A stretch of DNA of 64,000 nucleotides from a bacterium (GCA_026417575.1 JAOACZ010000128.1:5127-69126); one strand, 5' to 3'. Counted from the stretch's first letter, positions 1,850-44,700 are shown. The notes: generated by a model from the sequence alone, not told the origin. Made by a program: numbers and translations.

Positions 1850-2388
1850 AGTCCAAAAGTGCGTAGCTGGTGTTTTTTTGCCGTGAACCGATGAGCACTA
1901 GCGATGTGCGTACTGATAAGTTCCGTGGCGCTTTCCTCGAGCAGGCTTGAAGTGAAGCGTTCTTTAGTACTCCCACGTGCATGCTACCCGTGTTGAATCC
2001 GCGCAGTCCATGTTCCTCAGGCGAGACGGCGCGAGGCGTGGAAGGCAGTACATTACCTGAAACGCGTTCATTCGTATGGCACGGATGGACCATCACCGGC
2101 ATCGCTTGCTCACCCAGCTGGGCGAAGAGTTCGTCCGCCCAAGCGACGTGCTGGTGAAGATTTCAATCGGCTGGTGAAATAAACATGCGTTCGTGTTTGA
2201 GATTCGCGGGGGTGTAAGGTTGCGCACGGAAAAAAAGTGCGCCAACGCGCGGGTCGTTCCCAGCACCATTCAAGTGCGGGCACTGAGGTTCTGGAGACGG
2301 CTGGTGTGACTGCCGCGTGCTCTCCGCAGAGCTCGCTTCGAGAGTCTTGCCGCAGAAGCGCGCGGGTTCCGCTACATCTTGGGGGGAC

Positions 2389-2417
2389 TTGATTTTTGAA
2401 CCACAATGTGCTACACT
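2389..2417 (+). promoter_or_regulatory. sigma70-type promoter of the candidate sRNA
   Basis: TTGATT (2389-2394), 17-nt spacer, TACACT (2412-2417). Predicted TSS is near 2424. Confidence 0.45.
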
Positions 2418-2423
2418 ATACGC

Positions 2424-2586
2424 ACGATGGCGAGCGAGATGCGGCATCCTTAGATGGATACACGACAAACAGCAAGTCCCTCCTCCACAAACCGATATCC
2501 ATGGCCGCATCTCAACGCTCAACATCATTCAGCCACCGCGGCTGGGAACGTCACCCCCAGGACAAGTACCAGCCGCTTTTTATTTC
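2424..2586 (+). ncRNA. Candidate structured small RNA (about 160 nt), family unknown
   Basis: Bounded by a promoter and a terminator. Long imperfect helix: GATG/CATC, GAGC/GCTC, GAGATGCGGC/GCCGCATCTC (2426-2445 with 2504-2526). Inner 7-bp helix ATGGATA/TATCCAT (2454-2460 with 2496-2502). The 35-nt apical loop contains CCCUCCUCC (2478-2486). No credible ORF. Confidence 0.45.
2538..2586 (+). terminator. Rho-independent terminator-like hairpin plus U-tract
   Basis: GCGGCTGG (2538-2545) pairs with CCAGCCGC (2569-2576). An inner CTGGG/CCCAG pairing is possible. Followed directly by TTTTTATTT. Confidence 0.5.
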
Positions 2587-2645
2587 TTCGTGACGCGCGC
2601 TACCGCGCTTCACGCTCATGACGTCTCGCAGGCGAGCGCTTTCGC

Positions 2646-3569
2646 ATGCCAACGCCCGCTCACGAAAATCCGCTCCACACCGCAGTTCGCCAGTTCGTCC
2701 TTCATCTTCAGCTCGAACGTGGGTTGGCGCGCAACACCTGCCTGGCTTACGAAAACGATGTGCGGCTCTTCGGCGCGTTTCTGGCCCGGCATGGTATCAA
2801 TGCCTGGCACGAGGTCACACCTGCACATATTACTGACTTTCTCACCGAGCGCCATGCTCTCCGGCGTAGCGTGAATACTGTTTTGCGCGAGTTAATTGCC
2901 TTGCGCGTGTTCTTCCGATATCTGGTGCAAGAGAGAACGGTTCAGGAGGACGTGACCGCACGCGTGGAAGCACCTAAAGTGTGGCGTCTATTGCCAGAGG
3001 TGCTGAGCGAAGGGGAGATGCAACAGCTTCTGACAGCGCCGGATGAGCGCACGTGGCGTGGAGCGCGAGACAAAGCCATGCTTGAGTTGTTGTACGCGAC
3101 GGGTCTGCGGGTGAGTGAACTTGTGACCCTACGACTAGGTGACGTGGATTTGGAGAGCGGATTCTTGCGGTGTCGCGGGAAAGGCGGAAAAGAGCGTGTG
3201 GTTCCGATTGGCGCGCCGGCACGTGCGGCGCTGCGAGCTTACCTGTCATGGCGCGGATCGGGAGCGGGAGCCGAACCCCTTTTTTGTACCTCACGGCATA
3301 CAGCCATGACGCGTGTGAACTTTTGGAAACGCATTACTCAGTATGCAAAAAGGGCTGGGATTCTCAAGGCCGCGCATCCACACATCGTGCGCCATTCCTT
3401 TGCCACGCACTTACTTATGCATGGCGCTGACTTACGCGTGGTACAGGAGCTTCTCGGGCACGCAAACATCACGACCACGCAACGATACACGCACGTGGAC
3501 CATCAACGTTTACGCGCTGTGCATCGCCAATTCCATCCCCGTGCGCGCTTGCCGCGCGGTGAGGTATGA
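2646..3569 (+). CDS. xerD: Tyrosine site-specific recombinase XerD
   Basis: 307 aa. Contains RDKAMLELLYATGLRVSELV, HIVRHSFATHLL, LLGHANITTTQRYTH and ends HPRA, close to the E. coli XerD motifs as I recall them. Confidence 0.8.
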   Translation: MPTPAHENPLHTAVRQFVLHLQLERGLARNTCLAYENDVRLFGAFLARHGINAWHEVTPAHITDFLTERHALRRSVNTVLRELIALRVFFRYLVQERTVQEDVTARVEAPKVWRLLPEVLSEGEMQQLLTAPDERTWRGARDKAMLELLYATGLRVSELVTLRLGDVDLESGFLRCRGKGGKERVVPIGAPARAALRAYLSWRGSGAGAEPLFCTSRHTAMTRVNFWKRITQYAKRAGILKAAHPHIVRHSFATHLLMHGADLRVVQELLGHANITTTQRYTHVDHQRLRAVHRQFHPRARLPRGEV

Positions 3570-3679: not shown

Positions 3680-4759
3680 TCATTGATTTTTGACGACGTC
3701 ACTGAACGTTCTCTTTTTCAGGCCGTGATGGGCGACGGGGTCGGAAGCAAGAGGAACGCGTGTTGCAGCTACCATGGCCACCACGTTAGCAGGTTGCGTG
3801 TTTGGGAGCATGGCTTTGTGGCTGGGACCCACAATGATGCGTTCAGCACACGCACGCCGGAGCTCGCGCAGCGCTGCCGTGACCTCGGCAGATGTGGAAT
3901 GAACCAGCAGATCCTGCGTGTCCACCCCGCCCATAAAGACAAGCCGCGAGCCAAAGCGGGCGGCCTGGTCGGCGGGAACCATCCCCTTGGCACGTGTTAG
4001 CATGTGACGCTGGCAATCCACACCAGCTGCAGTCGGCTCGTCAATGTGTTCGCTGATAGCGCCGCATGAGTGCGGGGCTAAGACATACCCGTGCGCGTGT
4101 GCTTGTGCGGCAAATCGCGCATTCCAGGGGCGGAAGAAGGCGCGAAACACCGCGGGTGACATTAATAACCCAGTTTGCGTGCCGAAATCATTGCCCATGA
4201 AGCTGGCATCCATGCGCACCAGCTGCGCGATAGAACAGTTCGTTGACATCGCAGTAGAAACTGCACATTCGCTCGAGCGCCGCGTTCACCACGTCTGGCG
4301 CGAGGAGGAGCAAGGAGAGCAAATCTTCCGTGCCAAACAAATAGCACAGGTCATGAAAGAACGGTGTCCAGAGGCCACTCATGCGATAGTAGGGCCCGCA
4401 GGCGTCGAGGTGGGCAGGCGTCTCGTTAAAGTCGAGGTAACGAGCGTCAGGGAACGGCAGGTATCAACATCACCACGGTAGCGGGCAAAAGCCCTTTGCG
4501 CGCTAAGCCGTGGGAGGGTAGCTTCTCACCAGGGGCGCATGCTCATACCGGCGGGGTGGCTATACGTGGAAGCAAAGTGCTGCGGGCCGATCCAGCACAC
4601 GTTATCGCCCAGAAATTGCAGAAGTTCTTCGAGCGAGGTGCTGCCGAGCACGGTATGAAGCGTGGCTTGGATTTCTTGGGGAGGGCACCCGAGCCAGAAA
4701 GCGCAACGCTCCACCGGCACGCCAGCGATGAGGGCGTGCACGCGCGCACGGGGCGTCAC
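3680..4759 (-). pseudogene. Uroporphyrinogen decarboxylase (URO-D/MtaA-like) family gene, frameshifted
   Basis: Consecutive minus-strand pieces in different frames read as one protein of about 360 aa: 4759-4526 MTPRARVHALIAGVPVERCAFWLG...HPAGMSMRPW stop; then ...LPFPDARYLDFNETPAHLDACGPYYRMSGLWTPFFHDLCYLFGTEDLL... (to 4188); then 4249-3680 ...FMGGVDTQDLLVHSTSAEVTAALRELRRA.... At least 3 frame disruptions. Confidence 0.7.
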
Positions 4760-9443: not shown

Positions 9444-10172
9444 ATGGATCGTTTCTTTTGGCTCGCTCCATGTGCTCTGCTTCCCTTTAGTGCCAACGCC
9501 GCAGCACCCTTCCCCAGCGATGACATCACCACATCAGTAGGTGTGGTGCGCATTTCGTTCCTGGGGCACGGCACCCTCATGCTCACGCATGGTCAAACGG
9601 TCATCCACGTGGATCCGTTTGGGCAGGTGGCTGATTACGCGTCGTTGCCCAAAGCCGATCTTATTCTCATTACACACGAACATTTCGACCATCTCGATCT
9701 GGCCGCAATCAAGAAAATTCGTACCGACAAAACGGCCATCATTGCTCCACCCATCTGTGCGAGCAGCCTGCCTGAAGCAATCCTGCTGCGCAACGGCGAG
9801 CACACCACCAAAGCCGGTATTGTCATCCACGCCGTGCCGGCGTACAACATCAAGCATGAACGTGCGCCTGGCAAACCGTTCCACCCACGCGGCGTGGGGA
9901 ACGGCTACATCCTCACCTTTGGTGACACTCGTCTTTACATCGCCGGTGATACGGAAAACACACCCGAAATGAAAGCTCTGACCAACATCACGGTCGCTTT
10001 TCTCCCAATGAACTTACCCTACACGATGACACCCGAAATGGTTGCCGACGCGGCGCGGGCATTCAAGCCAAAAATTCTCTATCCATATCATTACGGCGAT
10101 ACAGATCCAACACGGCTGACAAAGCTGCTGAAAGACACGGGCATTGAGGTGCGGATTCGCCCGATGCGATGA
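9444..10172 (+). CDS. MBL-fold metallo-hydrolase with signal peptide
   Basis: 242 aa. N-terminal signal-like MDRFFWLAPCALLPFSANAAAP and the HxHxDH motif HEHFDHLD. Confidence 0.8.
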   Translation: MDRFFWLAPCALLPFSANAAAPFPSDDITTSVGVVRISFLGHGTLMLTHGQTVIHVDPFGQVADYASLPKADLILITHEHFDHLDLAAIKKIRTDKTAIIAPPICASSLPEAILLRNGEHTTKAGIVIHAVPAYNIKHERAPGKPFHPRGVGNGYILTFGDTRLYIAGDTENTPEMKALTNITVAFLPMNLPYTMTPEMVADAARAFKPKILYPYHYGDTDPTRLTKLLKDTGIEVRIRPMR

Positions 10173-11650
10173 GCAGCGCCACGGTCATTTTTCCGCACCA
10201 GTTGTTCGCAGACCATCCCGGGTTAGATCGTGGGCGGCGCATCGTTCTGGTTGAAGATCAGCTCTTCTTTCGTGATTGGCGGTACCCCGCGCGGTTTCAC
10301 AAGCACAAGTTGATCCTCCATCGCGCGAGTATGCGCGCCTACGCCACCCTGCTGCGCCAGCGTGGCTACGATGTCAGCTACCTTGAGTATGCGCCGGACC
10401 GCGAAATGTCCTATTTGTTTGCGCCTTTGCGCCGCGCAGGTGTGACTGAGATAGTCGTCGCGGAGGTGTGTGACTTCATGTTGGAAAAACGCGTGCGCCG
10501 CTACGCTAGGCAACACGGCATACGCATTACCGAGCTGTCGTCCCCTGGGTTTCTCACCCCACGTGATTGGCTGCTCAACCGACTACAAGGCAAGCAGCGC
10601 CTCAGCCTGACATCTTTCTACATTGCTCAGCGCAAACGTATGGGCATCTTGTTGGATAACGGCAAGCCACGCGGCGGCCGCTGGACGTATGACACCGCGA
10701 ATCGCCAACCGCTGCCCAAGAACCTTCCTGTTCCCCCACTTCCAACTATCTCGCCCTGCCCAGAGGTACGCGCGGCGATAGCCTACGTCACTCAGCACTG
10801 GCCTGACCACCCGGGTGAACCGTCGGCATTTTGGCTTCCGATCACACACGCAGCTGCAGCACAATGGCTCCAGCACTTTCTAGAACACCGTGTGATGCTG
10901 TTCGGCCCTTACCAAGACGCCATGCGTCGGGAGGAGCCTTTCCTCTTTCACTCAGTTCTCTCACCTCTGCTCAACATCGGCTTACTCACGCCCACCCAAG
11001 TGCTCGAGGCCGTGATAGCCGCCGCGCGTGAAAAGGATGTACCCCTTCCATCATTGGAGGGCTTCATCCGTCAGTTGATAGGTTGGCGTGAATTCGTCCG
11101 CGGCGTTTATCTTTTGCACGGCGTACGCCAGCGCACCAGTAATCACTGTGCTTCCACGCGGCCTATGCCAAGCGCGTTCTATCACGGAACTACGGGCCTC
11201 CTGCCCTTTGACACTGTCGTCGCGCGCGTGCAACGCCTGGCCTATTCTCATCACATTGAACGACTTATGATATTGGGGAACCTCATGCTGCTCTGTGGCA
11301 TTCATCCTGACGCAGTTTATACCTGGTTTATGGAGCTGTTCCTGGATGCCTACGATTGGGTCATGGTCCCAAACGTGTACGGCATGAGCCAGTATGCCGA
11401 TGGTGGCTTAATGACCACAAAACCCTACGTGTGCAGTTCACGCTATATCCGCAGGATGAGTGATTATCCTCGCGGTGCCTGGTGTGAAGTGTGGGATGCG
11501 CTCTACTGGCAGTTTATTGATCGGCAGCGCGCCACCCTGGAGGGCAGCCCGCGCACCGCAGTGATGCCGCGCATGTACGATCGGTTTACACCTTCGCGCC
11601 GAGCCGAGCTTGCACGCAAAGCAGAACAATTTCTCGCGCAGCTTACGTAA
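10169..11650 (+). CDS. Cryptochrome/photolyase-family protein, FeS-BCP/(6-4) photolyase PhrB-like (COG3046 type)
   Basis: 493 aa. N-terminus MSSATVIFPHQLF...HKHKLILHRASMRAY is typical of photolyase-related COG3046. The C-terminal Cys pattern TKPYVCSSRYIRRMSDYPRGAWC matches the Fe-S cluster region as I recall it. ATGA overlap with the MBL gene. Confidence 0.7.
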   Translation: MSSATVIFPHQLFADHPGLDRGRRIVLVEDQLFFRDWRYPARFHKHKLILHRASMRAYATLLRQRGYDVSYLEYAPDREMSYLFAPLRRAGVTEIVVAEVCDFMLEKRVRRYARQHGIRITELSSPGFLTPRDWLLNRLQGKQRLSLTSFYIAQRKRMGILLDNGKPRGGRWTYDTANRQPLPKNLPVPPLPTISPCPEVRAAIAYVTQHWPDHPGEPSAFWLPITHAAAAQWLQHFLEHRVMLFGPYQDAMRREEPFLFHSVLSPLLNIGLLTPTQVLEAVIAAAREKDVPLPSLEGFIRQLIGWREFVRGVYLLHGVRQRTSNHCASTRPMPSAFYHGTTGLLPFDTVVARVQRLAYSHHIERLMILGNLMLLCGIHPDAVYTWFMELFLDAYDWVMVPNVYGMSQYADGGLMTTKPYVCSSRYIRRMSDYPRGAWCEVWDALYWQFIDRQRATLEGSPRTAVMPRMYDRFTPSRRAELARKAEQFLAQLT

Positions 11651-41751: not shown

Positions 41752-44700
41752 GGGGCGCTGGGCGAAGAGGAAAGCAGGATGGTGCGCATGGAGGCGTGGG
41801 TGAGGCGGTGGTTGGCATCGAGCAAGGCGGGGTACGTGTCTGGGGGAAAGACAGCAGGGCGTAGGCGGAGGTCCTGGGTCATGGGGAGGAGGTTGGTAGC
41901 ACTGCAATGCCACTTGGCACTGCAGCGGACGAAGCCAGTTTGTTGGGGGGCGTACCATGTGTACGTGGGCGGAAGTAACTCAGCGTGAGCGAAGGAAGTG
42001 GGCAGGTGTACGTGGGTGGTGATGGTTATTTCGTTGTCGCTGTCCCAGTAATACGGAGTTGAGCGTGTATCAGCCCGCAGGCCGGGCAAGCTGATTAAGC
42101 CGGCAGGCAAGGTGCCGTACAAACTTGTGCCGTCACGTACCAAGTAGCGTGGCACGTGGACAGTAAATTCCTCGACGCCCGGGTAGCGCTCGTGCTGGGT
42201 GTGGAGCGGGCCGATGGCGCGGGCGGCTTGAGAGATGTTAGCGACGAGTTCCAGGTAATGGCGACGGCGCTGTTCGGGCGTCATCTCAGTGTACTGTTTG
42301 CGAAACGCGCCGAACGAGGTGCCGTAGTAGACGCGCCGATACGTGAGGCGCGCGTCGCCTTGCTCGTCGACGGAGAGGTCGTAGAACAGTTCGGTGTGAG
42401 AGCGGCAGCGGCGGGGTGCGCGCACGCGAGTAAGCGTACCGGCCGGCAAGAGCAGCGCGGGCCGGCCATCATGACGTGTGACACCTAATTCGGCGTATTG
42501 GTCGGTGTCATTTAAGTACCACGTTTCGGCGCCACACAGGACGCGGACGAGGACGGTGGGGAACACGTGACGTTGCGGGCAGAGGAGGCGTGGGTTGTTT
42601 GGCCGGGTGAGGCGTGGCTCACTTGAGGCCAGGACGAATTCAGCTGTAACGCCGATGGCGCGAAGCATAGAGAGGTAAAGGATCGCGCGGTCTGCGCTAT
42701 GACCATAGCCATCATGGAGGGTGCGATCGGCGGGGGAGAGGGAGGTGAGTGGCATGGCAGGGAAGGGAGGCCCGGCGGCACGGATGTGTGTGGCGATGAA
42801 ATCACGCACCGCGCGGATTTTGGCGCGGCGACACGCGAGCCCCGCGGTGAGGGCTTGTGCGCGGGCGATCGCAGCGGTTTGCCCCTCGGTAGCACGGAGC
42901 AACGCGGCGTGCACTTCCGCTGCGTAGCGCTTCCAGGTACCGCAGGAGGCCACGACACCTGGGGCGAACATCCAGAGCGGGGGCTGATTTGGTTCTGGAG
43001 TGATTGGCGGTTGATTGGTCATTTCCCAGGTGTACTCGATGACAGCGTGGTTGCTGGCGATGGTTTCCATGACCTGGCCGCCGGGGGTGAAACAACGTGT
43101 GAAAGGCAACTCGAGCGGGACGCGGCAGCGCACACGCTTACGCTGGATCGGATCGAACGTGCGGAAGAGTGCGTAAAGGTCGCATGAGGGCCGGTGGCGC
43201 TGTGTGCGCTCCACGCAATACTCGATCGTACTGCCGATTTCCACGCCGGGCAAATTTACGACGAGGATTTTCTCGCCTGGGTAGCGCGGGGCCCTCCCTA
43301 CCCATGGGGCGTCCATGTAGTTGATTTCATTGGTGCTGGCAGTGAAGAGGCGGCCATCGGGCGTTGTCACGCGGGCGTAGTGGAGGGTGACCGTGTCCCA
43401 CACAGGATTGAAGGGAACTTTCAATTCGGCATGTTGTTTCTTACCGGCGTAGGTGAGGATCTGCTTTTTGACGCGTGTGAGGACACGTTGGGTGTGCGCA
43501 TCATGGACTTCATACAGTTCATCGGCGTCGTGAATAACGACGTCTCCGCGAGATGGGTCGGCCTCGCGCGCGAAAATAGCGCGTTTGCGGCGGTCGAACT
43601 CGATTGAGCGTAGAGCGTCTTTCAAGGCACGGTAGTCCTGAGGCGAGAACTCGACCAGGCGGAGTTGCTGGAGGGCGTGCGCATGGAGAACGCCGTCACG
43701 TACGGTCATCTGAGCCTGCCACACGAGGGAGGACGAGATGATGGCTTCGATGTGGGGGAGCGTGTGGACCGGCCCGGCCGCGCCATCCATGGTCAAACGG
43801 ATATTCTCGGAGACGCCGCAGGCGTACTTTGTTTCGAGGGGATACTTGCGCTCGTCCAGACCGGTTGCGCCAATGACGAAGTTGATCAGGCCGACGGAGG
43901 TGCCGAACCACAGAGGCGGCAACATGACGACTTGGGGGCCGACGATGGGGAATTCACGGGCTTCGTAGGTTAGGTGGACATGGAGGGGCTTGCTCATGTC
44001 GCGCAGTTCTCGTGGCGTGATTTCGCACGCGAGGATGCGTGCGCCAGGCACGACACGTTTGACGAGACCTTCAAACATGTGGCGGCGTTCTATTGGTTTC
44101 ATGCGCACCAGGGCGCTGCGGTACGCGTTGTCGTTAATACCGTCAAAGGAAAGCCGGGTTTGGGCGCGCAGCGTACCGTCGCGAGAAAGCTCCCCGGTCG
44201 TTTTGATGCGCATCATATTGGCCTCGGCTGGTATGATTGGGGAGACGCGTAAACAGTCGCCCGCGGGCTTCGCAACTAAATAACTCCGATCACATAAGTA
44301 CGCAGGGAGAAGTTCTTTGGTGGTTTCGTCGGTAGGATCCATGAGTGTGTACGAGCCGTCGGCTTCTTCCACAGCGACGACGGCGTGATTAAAGAAGGGC
44401 TGAGGCACCTCAGGATCTTTCTTGGGACCGATGTACATGAGGACAGGGTAGGCTTTGAAGCCAGCGAGGCGGAGCAAGGCAACTAGTAATGCGCCTTTGT
44501 CGCGACAGACACCGTATTTATTTTCGAAGGTGACGCAGACATCGTGGGGTTCGTAGCCGGGAGCTTCAGTTTCGGTGGTGATACCCATGTAGCGAATGTT
44601 TTGAGAGACGTAGTAGAAGAGGGCTTCGAGGCGGGCGCGGTCGTTTGTCAGGCCGGCGGTGAGTTCGGCGACGAAGTTGCTCATTGCGGGGGTGGTGGCG

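What the first reader, a model, noticed from the sequence alone, without database searches (positions are those of the whole stretch)
2389..2586. Promoter-to-terminator unit folding into a long helix with a CCCUCCUCC loop: candidate novel sRNA
No ORF explains the DNA between tRNA-Lys and xerD. A TTGATT-17-TACACT promoter is followed about 115 nt later by an 8-bp GC-rich hairpin and TTTTTATTT. The intervening RNA pairs its two ends over 18 bp (4+4+10 bp with small bulges) and holds a 7-bp inner helix. The 35-nt apical loop exposes CCCUCCUCC, which is complementary to GGAGG-type Shine-Dalgarno sequences of the kind seen at many genes in this window. C-rich-loop sRNAs that occlude ribosome-binding sites are known in other phyla (the RsaE/RoxS type). 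I recognise no known RNA family here.
Basis: seen in the sequence. Interest (0 to 1): 0.6.

Follow-up and report, generated by a model that had tools for sequence, protein, structure and literature searches.

The report
Conserved small RNA in xerD leader
A structured RNA of about 160 nt, with a promoter and a terminator-like hairpin, sits just upstream of the xerD recombinase gene; it is much better conserved than xerD in a few uncultured relatives and matches no catalogued RNA family, but its function is unproven.

Summary
Window 2374-2586 (+) is a sharply bounded conserved block: an upstream motif, a -35/17 nt/extended -10 promoter, a ~100-nt irregular hairpin closing a ~35-nt loop with CCCUCCUCC, an 8-bp GC hairpin with a 23-nt loop, and a U-run.

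The same block was found in five other lineages, all from metagenome contigs. It is always directly 5' of xerD on the same strand. It is 86-88% identical to four of them, where xerD is 66-69% identical in DNA and 36-43% at third codon positions.

Rfam 15 gives no match. No ORF is conserved. G-U pairs and compensatory changes point to the + strand.

- No other promoter precedes xerD, so the RNA lies inside the xerD leader. A sister clade has a plain promoter-plus-xerD arrangement.
- The most distant lineage (L091) lacks the U-run, its 5' arm has diverged, and its loop reads GCCUUUCUUCCACA. The exact anti-Shine-Dalgarno core is therefore not conserved.

Best reading (about 0.4): a terminated leader transcript that acts as a small RNA through exposed pyrimidine-rich loops. 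Main rival (about 0.3): a purely cis-acting attenuator of xerD. It is a new family of a known kind. No function or transcript has been shown.

The parts
2374..2386 (+). Conserved upstream motif ACATCTTGGGGGG abutting the -35 (possible regulator or UP-like site)
   Evidence: Invariant or nearly so in the five main-clade lineages, while DNA further upstream cannot be aligned. Absent at this position in L091.
2389..2394 (+). -35 hexamer TTGATT (TTGACT or TTGACA in relatives)
   Evidence: The scan finds the homologous promoter in L081, L087 and L091.
2409..2417 (+). Extended -10, TGcTACACT (TGnTACAAT or TGnTATAAT in relatives); 17-nt spacer
2424..2586 (+). Predicted RNA, about 160 nt. The start about 7 nt after the -10 is inferred; the end at the U-run is inferred.
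   Evidence: Covariance model R1 scores 192 bits here and 163-198 bits in four other lineages (58 bits for L091 and L100); there is only one copy in the window. Fold z = -4.15.
2426..2429 (+). P1, 5' strand GAUG
   Evidence: GAU/AUC is kept in all seven sequences.
2432..2436 (+). P2, 5' strand GAGCG
   Evidence: Invariant in the main clade, so uninformative on pairing.
2436..2445 (+). P3, 5' strand GAGAUGCGGC (conserved core GAUGCGGY)
   Evidence: The last pair is C-G in the window and L087, U-A in L081 and U-G in L084. L088 has a G-U inside the helix.
2454..2460 (+). P4, 5' strand AUGGAUA
   Evidence: UGGAUA/UAUCCA is invariant in the main clade. The pair above it is G-C (L081, L084) or U-A (L087) and is unpaired in the window and L088.
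2461..2495 (+). L4, 35-nt apical loop. 33 nt are identical in the five main-clade lineages, apart from a 1-nt deletion in L088 and one substitution in L084.
2476..2489 (+). Pyrimidine-rich segment GUCCCUCCUCCACA (CCCUCCUCC = 2478-2486)
   Evidence: Predicted mean unpaired probability 0.53-0.92 in the main clade. L091 has GCCUUUCUUCCACA, which differs only by C/U transitions.
2496..2502 (+). P4, 3' strand UAUCCAU
2504..2513 (+). P3, 3' strand GCCGCAUCUC
2516..2526 (+). P2 3' strand CGCUC (2516-2520) and P1 3' strand CAUC (2523-2526)
2527..2537 (+). Linker AUUCAGCCACC (AUACAGCAACC in relatives); it repeats the ACAGCAA of L4
2538..2576 (+). P5 hairpin: 8-bp stem (2538-2545 with 2569-2576) and a 23-nt loop L5 (2546-2568) holding CACCCCCAGGAC. 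This is the best-conserved module of the family.
   Evidence: -18.5 kcal/mol. G-C becomes A-U in L091 and L100, and G-U in L081. The loop is nearly invariant in all lineages; the pattern used for the scan came from it.
2577..2585 (+). U-run UUUUUAUUU. Terminator function is inferred.
   Evidence: U-runs of 5-7 follow P5 in five lineages but start 2-5 nt after the stem in three of them. L091 and L100 have CCCCCCCUCCCCC instead.
2587..2645 (+). Non-conserved spacer to xerD, with no promoter-like site
2646..3569 (+). xerD (307 aa), probably transcribed by read-through from the RNA's promoter
   Evidence: TIGR02225 XerD equivalog, 341.8 bits against a cutoff of 329.6. Pfam Phage_integrase plus SAM_1.

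Best explanation
Window 2374-2586 encodes a non-coding RNA of about 150-160 nt that lies in the 5' leader of xerD.

Proposed mechanism:
1. RNA polymerase starts near 2424 from a sigma-70 extended -10 promoter.
2. It transcribes a 5' domain (helices P1-P4 closing a 35-nt loop) and a 3' hairpin (P5, 8 bp, 23-nt loop) followed by a U-run.
3. Most transcripts end at the U-run and accumulate as a small RNA.
4. A minority read through and provide the xerD mRNA.
5. The released RNA acts in trans by base pairing. Its single-stranded pyrimidine-rich segments (GUCCCUCCUCCACA in L4, CACCCCCAGG in L5) pair with G-rich, Shine-Dalgarno-like regions of mRNAs and lower their translation. This is how the C-rich-loop sRNAs RoxS/RsaE, the cuckoo RNAs and RepG are thought to work.

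Shown here: the unit, its boundaries, its strand, its structure in the main clade, purifying selection, the absence of a conserved ORF, and the absence of a second promoter-like site.

Inferred: the transcription start, termination, accumulation, trans action and the targets.
For: - Conserved block: blastn finds only 2374-2586 of the 863-bp intergenic region in contigs of XerD relatives (82-85% identity over about 210 nt).
- Selection: the RNA is 86-88% identical where xerD DNA is 66-69% and third codon positions are 36-43%.
- Boundaries: the flanks upstream of the motif and between the U-run and xerD cannot be aligned.
- Promoter: found at the homologous place in all six lineages with a 17-nt spacer and TG.
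- Fold: z = -4.15 for the whole RNA, and -3.3 to -5.2 for the 5' domain in four lineages.
- Pairing: 87.5% of cells are paired and 6 pairs change on both sides, against at most 2 when the partners are slid.
- Strand: the G-U pairs fit only the + strand.
- Domains: the 5' domain and P5 fold independently, and truncated transcripts show no conserved antiterminator.
- Accessibility: both C-rich segments are predicted mostly unpaired.
- Not coding: frames are broken by 1-nt and 4-nt indels and by stops in L081 and L084, and Pfam finds nothing in the overlapping ORFs.
- Analogues: C-rich unpaired regions pairing with Shine-Dalgarno sequences are an established sRNA mechanism (PMC4409812, PMC4615179).
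Against: - The RNA is strictly linked to xerD in all lineages, while both outer neighbours change. No separate xerD promoter-like site exists. This is the usual signature of a cis-acting leader.
- L091 and L100 lack the U-run, so there the RNA would stay attached to the xerD mRNA unless it is processed.
- The CCUCC core is not kept in L091.
- The invariance of 33 and 23 nt exceeds what a seed requires.
- No convincing target was found in the window or in the flanks of relatives. The xerD start regions score -7 to -19.5 kcal/mol against a background of -11.5 +/- 5.
- In three lineages the U-run starts 2-5 nt after the stem, which is poor for an intrinsic terminator.
- There are only 7 distinct sequences, 2 of them near-identical, so covariation statistics are weak.
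- There are no transcript data.
Confidence: 0.4

Rival explanations
1. Purely cis-acting leader or attenuator of xerD. The structured RNA senses a factor (a protein, a ligand or another RNA), and P5 plus the U-run terminate transcription before xerD unless the factor intervenes. The short transcript is a by-product.
For: - The RNA is always directly 5' of xerD on the same strand, in three different upstream and three different downstream contexts.
- The only promoter-like site on the + strand before xerD is the one in front of the RNA.
- In the sister clade (L089) a similar extended -10 promoter sits directly before xerD, so this looks like the xerD promoter.
- A small alternative hairpin CUGGG/CCCAG (2542-2546/2556-2560, -5.9 kcal/mol) competes with the P5 stem and forms first in truncated transcripts. 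In L091 the one change on its 3' side (CCCAG to CCUAG) keeps it as a G-U pair.
Against: - No conserved antiterminator links the 5' domain to P5, and the alternative hairpin is weak.
- The P5 loop is the best-conserved part, which is unusual for an expression platform.
- L091 keeps P5 with a compensatory change but has lost the U-run, so P5 is selected for something other than termination.
- No riboswitch or leader family matches.
- xerD has no known metabolite or attenuation control (own knowledge; no paper found).
- Pairing of the loop with xerD start regions is inconsistent.
Confidence: 0.3
2. A protein-binding RNA (sponge, decoy or ribonucleoprotein component). Its invariant loops L4 and L5 and the repeated ACAGCAA and YAGGAC motifs are recognition sites rather than pairing seeds.
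For: - Long single-stranded stretches are invariant (33 and 23 nt), with no intramolecular partner found.
- In L091 the 3' strands of P1-P4 keep their sequence although the 5' arm has diverged. The homologous fold costs -35.5 against -46.3 kcal/mol for the minimum-energy fold. This suggests sequence-specific constraints.
- ACAGCAA occurs in L4 and again in the linker.
- UAGGAC or CAGGAC occurs in L5 and again 1-3 times in the xerD spacers of L081, L084 and L087.
Against: - No known protein-binding RNA family matches: 6S, SRP, CsrB-like and Y RNA all give no hit.
- There are only one or two copies of each motif, far fewer than in known sponges.
- No candidate protein is linked, apart from XerD.
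Confidence: 0.15
3. An RNA functionally coupled to the XerD recombinase itself, as a cofactor, guide or regulator of Xer recombination. It would be encoded next to its enzyme, as guide RNAs of some transposon-encoded recombinases and nucleases are.
For: RNA-xerD is the only adjacency kept in all six lineages.
Against: - XerD here is an ordinary XerD equivalog.
- Close clades at 57-64% XerD identity lack the RNA upstream of xerD.
- The loops are invariant rather than co-varying with a DNA target.
- No dif-like site is present in the block or the window.
- The linkage is explained more simply by a shared promoter.
Confidence: 0.04
4. Not an RNA at all: a small protein gene, an invertible or mobile DNA element, or chance.
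For: - The window has a stop-free frame across the block.
- The long helix is also an inverted repeat in DNA next to a tyrosine recombinase gene.
Against: - No frame is open in all lineages, and indels of 1 and 4 nt shift frames. Pfam finds nothing.
- All lineages carry the same orientation, and the promoter lies outside the repeat.
- G-U pairs are strand-specific.
- There is no match in plasmid, phage or viral collections.
- Conservation is far above neutral.
Confidence: 0.03

Closest known systems
RoxS/RsaE (Bacillales; Rfam RsaE)
   Same: It is a small RNA of about 100-160 nt ending in a hairpin plus U-run. It has C-rich segments in predicted unpaired regions, including one in the 3' hairpin loop. 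The proposed action is pairing with G-rich Shine-Dalgarno regions (PMC4409812).
   Different: - No sequence or structure match.
- Two C-rich segments here instead of four.
- One large hairpin with a 35-nt loop.
- Embedded in the leader of xerD rather than free-standing.
- Different, unclassified lineage.
- No regulator or target is known.
Cuckoo RNA family (CcsR1-4, NfeR1; Rfam RF02344)
   Same: The loop motif is almost the same: CCUCCUCC is shared by CCCUCCUCC here and CCUCCUCCC there. Both are read as anti-Shine-Dalgarno. Both are genetically tied to a neighbouring gene (PMC4615179, PMC8034643).
   Different: - Cuckoo RNAs are 2-4 adjacent hairpins of 24-50 nt, each loop (9-27 nt) carrying the motif, and were found only in Alphaproteobacteria (PMC4615179).
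- Here there is one motif in a 35-nt loop of a hairpin of about 100 nt, and a second hairpin without it.
- No Rfam hit.
RepG (Helicobacter) and sX13 (Xanthomonas)
   Same: These are sRNAs whose C/U-rich loops pair with G-rich mRNA segments. In RepG the terminator loop does this. They are named as cuckoo-like in PMC4615179; the details are from my own knowledge.
   Different: There is no homology, and here the terminator-like loop is 23 nt and almost wholly invariant.
Leader- or attenuator-derived sRNAs (for example SreA/SreB of Listeria, rnTrpL of Sinorhizobium; own knowledge, not checked here)
   Same: A prematurely terminated 5' leader transcript, made from the promoter of the downstream gene, accumulates and acts in trans.
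   Different: Those leaders have a known cis function (SAM riboswitch, trp attenuator). Here no cis sensor function is known, and the downstream gene is a recombinase.
6S RNA (ssrS-ygfA arrangement; own knowledge)
   Same: It is an abundant housekeeping-type RNA made from a strong promoter and co-transcribed with the next gene.
   Different: The ends do not pair into a rod with a central bubble, and no 6S model matches.

Membership tests
RsaE/RoxS | Match to the family covariance model | tested here: not met
   cmscan of 1750-2700 at E<=10 and of the whole window at gathering score gives no RsaE hit.
RsaE/RoxS | Several (3-4) C-rich regions in unpaired stretches (PMC4409812) | tested here: inconclusive
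   There are two such segments, 2478-2486 and 2554-2558, with predicted mean unpaired probability 0.53-0.92 and 0.65.
RsaE/RoxS | C-rich region pairs with the Shine-Dalgarno region of targets and blocks translation initiation | not testable with these tools
   Only duplex predictions were possible, and they gave no consistent target.
Cuckoo RNAs (RF02344) | 2-4 adjacent hairpins of 24-50 nt, each loop of 9-27 nt carrying CCUCCUCCC (PMC4615179) | tested here: not met
   There is one CCCUCCUCC, in a 35-nt loop of a hairpin of about 100 nt. The second hairpin loop lacks the motif.
Cuckoo RNAs (RF02344) | Match to the Rfam model | tested here: not met
   No hit at E<=10.
Independent terminated sRNA gene (generic) | Own promoter | tested here: met
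   A -35/17 nt/extended -10 promoter is conserved in six lineages.
Independent terminated sRNA gene (generic) | Intrinsic terminator (GC hairpin directly followed by a U-run) | tested here: inconclusive
   The stem is 8 bp at -17 to -18.5 kcal/mol, but the loop is 23 nt. The U-run is adjacent in the window and L081, starts 2-5 nt away in L084, L087 and L088, and is absent in L091 and L100.
Independent terminated sRNA gene (generic) | Discrete transcript of the predicted size | not testable with these tools
   No expression data are available.
Cis-acting transcription attenuator or riboswitch (generic) | Lies in the 5' leader of the regulated gene, on the same strand, with no promoter in between | tested here: met
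Cis-acting transcription attenuator or riboswitch (generic) | Conserved, mutually exclusive antiterminator/terminator pairing | tested here: inconclusive
   Only a 5-bp CUGGG/CCYAG hairpin (-5.9 kcal/mol) competes with P5. There is no pairing between the 5' domain and P5.
Cis-acting transcription attenuator or riboswitch (generic) | Match to a known riboswitch or leader family | tested here: not met
Cis-acting transcription attenuator or riboswitch (generic) | Ligand- or protein-dependent change of termination | not testable with these tools
   This needs in vitro transcription or in-line probing.
6S RNA | 5' and 3' ends pair into a long rod with a central bubble; match to 6S models | tested here: not met
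   The 5' end pairs with nt ~80-103 of the RNA (window 2504-2526), and the 3' 50 nt form a separate hairpin. There is no Rfam hit.
XerD (neighbouring gene) | Score above the TIGR02225 equivalog cutoff | tested here: met
   341.8 bits against 329.6.

The most novel reading that the evidence does not exclude
The RNA is functionally coupled to XerD. It would be a recombinase-associated non-coding RNA that regulates or assists Xer site-specific recombination or chromosome segregation, kept next to xerD for that reason and not only because the two share a promoter.
Probability: 0.05. Interest if true: 0.85.

Novelty: new member of a known kind. Interest (0 to 1): 0.45.

Why it matters
If the RNA is expressed as predicted, it would be a first candidate regulatory RNA for a deep-branching, uncultured bacterial lineage. 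Its XerD is at most 50% identical to that of any GTDB representative returned. The best hits there are labelled Omnitrophota, Kiritimatiellia, Planctomycetia and Aminicenantes.

It would add an independent case of a pyrimidine-rich-loop, anti-Shine-Dalgarno-like RNA outside Firmicutes and Proteobacteria. That would support the view that this design arises by convergence.

The arrangement is also a tidy example of how a new RNA can arise inside the leader of a low-expression housekeeping gene. A strong promoter is followed by a highly conserved RNA, an imperfect terminator and then xerD. A sister clade carries a different hairpin-rich insert at the same place.

The claim is modest. The family is tiny (6 lineages) and confined to metagenomes, and no function has been shown.

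Tried and rejected
- Known families: Rfam on the whole window at gathering score and on 1750-2700 at E<=10 gave only two tRNAs and noise. I checked SRP, 6S and RNase P likeness by eye and rejected them.
- Close relatives in GTDB representative genomes: the XerD-based scan found nothing above 50% identity, and the covariance model found no copy in those 80 loci. That spent the only genome scan.
- More members: the metagenome scan with the L5 pattern gave 5 loci, of which 3 were already known, one matched L081 in the RNA and one was a near-duplicate of L091. The viral scan gave 0. Plasmid and phage blastn gave nothing. XerD relatives at 57-64% identity (L089, L094-L098, L104-L106) lack the RNA. 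P0013 had no DNA on file. The exact look-up of the window's own XerD failed.
- Target prediction: duplex scans of L4 and L5 against the window and against start regions of neighbouring genes in relatives gave no consistent target. The best hit (43982-43994) is antisense inside a gene.
- Cis pairing of the loop with the xerD ribosome-binding site: inconsistent energies.
- Antiterminator search: none found between the 5' domain and P5.
- Loop-loop pseudoknots between L4 and L5: only 3-5-bp matches that are not the same in L091 (by eye).
- Homologous fold in L091: disfavoured by about 11 kcal/mol.
- Coding: no conserved frame and no Pfam hit. The mini-ORF AUG GCG AGC ... at the 5' end has variable length and no stop in L087, so I rejected it as a leader peptide.
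- dif site: none. Inverton and tRNA-island integrase readings were rejected on orientation, context and the XerD equivalog score.
- Literature: no report of a xerD-leader RNA. The STAXI motif is unrelated.

Full report
**1. What is in the sequence**

- TTGATT (2389-2394), a 17-nt spacer and TACACT (2412-2417) are present. TG at 2409-2410 makes this an extended -10.
- RNAfold of 2420-2586 returns the 4+4+10-bp closing helix and a separate 3' hairpin. That hairpin is GCGGCUGG 2538-2545 paired with CCAGCCGC 2569-2576, followed by UUUUUAUUU.
- The fold energy is -53.6 kcal/mol against -36.8 +/- 4.0 for shuffles (z = -4.15, 0 of 200 as good). The minus strand is weaker (z = -2.68).
- The consensus scans listed neither signal. 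The promoter has only 8 of 12 matches, and the hairpin loop is 23 nt where the scan allows 3-8.
- Rfam 15 finds only the two tRNAs in the window. Nothing appears in 1750-2700 even at E<=10.

**2. Relatives and conservation**

The window's XerD has no close relative among GTDB representative genomes. The best is 48-50% identical, and the hits are labelled Omnitrophota, Kiritimatiellia, Planctomycetia and Aminicenantes. NCBI labels the protein itself only as coming from a 'bacterium' MAG.

The large protein collection holds XerD proteins at 71-74% and 57-64% identity. I fetched their contigs.

blastn of the whole intergenic region against these contigs hits only window 2374-2586. Identity is 82-85% over about 210 nt, always just upstream of xerD.

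The alignments show a block with sharp edges.
- It starts with ACATCTTGGGGGG, 2 nt before the -35.
- It ends at the U-run.
- DNA further upstream and the spacer to the xerD start cannot be aligned.

The RNA is 86-88% identical between the window and L081, L084, L087 and L088. In the same pairs xerD is 66-69% identical in DNA and 36-43% at third codon positions. The block is therefore under strong purifying selection.

A covariance model built from five sequences found one more lineage, L091, at 58 bits with xerD 63% identical. It also found its near-duplicate L100. It found no second copy in the window and none in the 80 distant XerD loci.

A metagenome scan with the most conserved 27-nt pattern returned only five contigs, all from lineages already found. 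A viral scan and plasmid and phage searches found nothing.

The family known so far is seven distinct sequences from six lineages.

**3. RNA rather than protein or DNA element**

- No reading frame is open in all lineages, and the lineages differ by 1-nt and 4-nt indels.
- The overlapping ORFs have no Pfam match.
- Several pairs are G-U in one lineage. These would be A-C mismatches on the other strand.
- The promoter is on the + strand in all lineages. The spacer is exactly 17 nt and TG precedes the -10. The scan tool lists it at 10-11 of 12 matches in L081, L087 and L091.

**4. Structure**

In the main clade the 5' domain folds the same way in four lineages, with z from -3.3 to -5.2.
- P1 is GAU(G) with (C)AUC.
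- P2 is GAGCG with CGCUC. It is invariant, so it says nothing about pairing.
- P3 has the core GAUGCGGY with RCCGCAUC. Its terminal pair is C-G, U-A or U-G.
- P4 is UGGAUA with UAUCCA. The pair above it is G-C or U-A.
- P5 keeps 8 bp, with G-C changed to A-U in L091 and L100 and a G-U in L081.

On the model-fitted alignment 87.5% of cells are paired and 6 pairs change on both sides. With slid partners the figure is 0-2. With so few, related sequences, this is supportive rather than decisive.

The loops are the striking part.
- 33 nt of L4 (ACGACAAACAGCAAGUCCCUCCUCCACAAACCG) are essentially invariant in the main clade.
- The 23 nt of L5 (GGGAANGUCACCCCYAGGACNAGUA) are essentially invariant in all lineages.
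- Both C-rich stretches are predicted mostly unpaired.

**5. What the distant lineage shows**

L091 and L100 keep the promoter, the 3' half of the 5' domain, the linker and P5. Three things differ.
- The U-run is replaced by CCCCCCCUCCCCC, and xerD starts 32 nt later.
- The 5' arm has diverged. The homologous fold costs about 11 kcal/mol relative to the minimum-energy fold, and the whole RNA is not unusually stable (z = -1.09).
- The loop motif reads GCCUUUCUUCCACA. All differences from GUCCCUCCUCCACA are C/U transitions. A G-rich partner could still pair through G-U, but the CCUCC core itself is not conserved.

P5 is therefore kept for a reason other than termination alone. The 3' strands seem constrained in sequence, not only in pairing.

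**6. Relation to xerD**

RNA-xerD is the only adjacency kept in all lineages.
- Upstream neighbours are tRNA-Lys, a Lactamase_B_3 gene, a small ORF beside pdxJ, and an STN-domain gene.
- Downstream neighbours of xerD are efp-epmA, a URO-D-like gene, or an NPCBM gene.

No other promoter-like site lies between the RNA and xerD.

In a sister clade (L089, XerD 62%) a TTGCCT-17-TGcTACAAT promoter stands directly before xerD. L104-L106 carry a different insert of about 115 nt, rich in hairpins, right after that -10. That insert is also unknown to Rfam.

XerD here passes the XerD equivalog cutoff.

The simplest reading is that the promoter serves both products. The RNA sits in the xerD leader, and xerD is made by read-through of an imperfect terminator. 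The terminator is imperfect because the loop is 23 nt and the U-run starts 2-5 nt after the stem in three lineages.

**7. Mechanism**

I looked for a terminator/antiterminator switch. Truncated transcripts show no pairing between the 5' domain and the P5 strands. Only a weak 5-bp CUGGG/CCCAG hairpin (-5.9 kcal/mol) competes with P5.

I looked for targets. Duplex scans of L4 and L5 against both strands of the window, and against start regions of neighbouring genes in all lineages, gave nothing consistent. xerD's own start region was included.

GGAGG precedes only 4 of 46 crude gene starts, though GGAG or GAGG precede about 18 more.

My committed view (0.4) is a terminated leader transcript that works as a small RNA through its exposed pyrimidine-rich loops. 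The analogues are RoxS/RsaE, cuckoo RNAs and RepG (PMC4409812, PMC4615179).

The alternatives are:
- a purely cis-acting attenuator of xerD (0.3);
- a protein-binding RNA (0.15);
- an RNA coupled to XerD function (0.04);
- a non-RNA explanation (0.03).

**8. Comparison and novelty**

The RNA is not a member of RsaE/RoxS or of the cuckoo family. It matches no model, and the cuckoo architecture (2-4 short hairpins, each with CCUCCUCCC) is not met. It only resembles them in design.

No paper describing a xerD-leader RNA turned up.

I rate it a new family of a known kind, of moderate interest. It is well supported as a selected RNA, with function and expression unproven.

Noticed in passing
window 1850-2373: About 520 bp between the tRNA promoter and the RNA unit remain unexplained. 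There is no Pfam hit for any ORF, no Rfam hit and no similarity to the upstream regions of relatives.
   Followed up: partly
window 1849-1821 (-): A near-consensus promoter, TTGACA-17-TACAAT with TG (11/12), faces the tRNA-Lys/tRNA-Ser pair. It presumably drives those tRNAs and diverges from the RNA unit.
   Followed up: no
window 3680-4759 (-): The URO-D-like gene (48% identical to the intact 338-aa gene of L088) carries three in-frame TGA codons (4526-4528, 4379-4381, 4286-4288) and a poorly aligned middle part. TGA is a normal stop in 12 of 27 other genes. This looks like a pseudogene or an assembly error, not recoding.
   Followed up: yes
window 43982-43994 (+): GGAGGGGCTTGCT is complementary (13 bp, one G-U) to AGCAAGUCCCUCC of the RNA loop. 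It lies in the loop of a GACATG...CATGTC inverted repeat. It is antisense inside the 1263-aa DUF3857/transglutaminase gene, so it is probably chance.
   Followed up: partly
L081 3957-3979; L084 3960-3983; L087 3927-3932; L088 375-408: The non-conserved spacers between the RNA and xerD hold lineage-specific short repeats. L081 has TAGGAC three times, L084 has TAGGAC twice plus TAAGAC, and L087 has it once. This is the same hexamer type as YAGGAC in the P5 loop. L088 has a 17-nt tandem repeat (GTGTGCCTACGTGCTTT twice).
   Followed up: partly
L105 2636-2750; L104 2887-3001; also L106: In a sister clade an insert of about 115 nt with five short hairpins sits between the xerD promoter's -10 and xerD. 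Two of the hairpins are GGGAGU..ACUCCC and one is AUGGAGGC-UGU-GCCUCCAU. L089 lacks the insert. It has no Rfam match. It may be a second, unrelated leader RNA or a small mobile insert.
   Followed up: partly
L089 2818-2874: The NCBI MAG contig (GCA_026398485.1) has a run of 38 N directly followed by ACGTGTGCTCTTCCGATCT. From my own knowledge this is Illumina adapter sequence, so it looks like a scaffolding or contamination artefact just upstream of xerD.
   Followed up: no
L104 3001-3957; L089 3001-3966: The called XerD starts (318 and 321 aa) begin inside the promoter or leader. Comparison with the window's N-terminus (..ENPLHTAVRQF..) suggests that the true start is a downstream GTG or ATG.
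   Followed up: partly
window 2427-2453: A mini-ORF starts 3 nt after the predicted transcription start (AUG GCG AGC GAG AUG CGG CAU CCU UAG). It has 6-8 codons in four lineages and no stop in L087, so it is probably a by-product of the P1-P3 sequence.
   Followed up: partly
L084 2780-3742: A stretch of about 960 bp without called genes lies upstream of the RNA. Only its two ends resemble the shorter region of L081.
   Followed up: no
window 9444-11650 (+): The Lactamase_B_3 and DPRP gene pair lies directly upstream of the RNA in L081 and L084. In the window it is 7 kb away on the other side of xerD. This shows local rearrangement around a constant RNA-xerD pair.
   Followed up: partly
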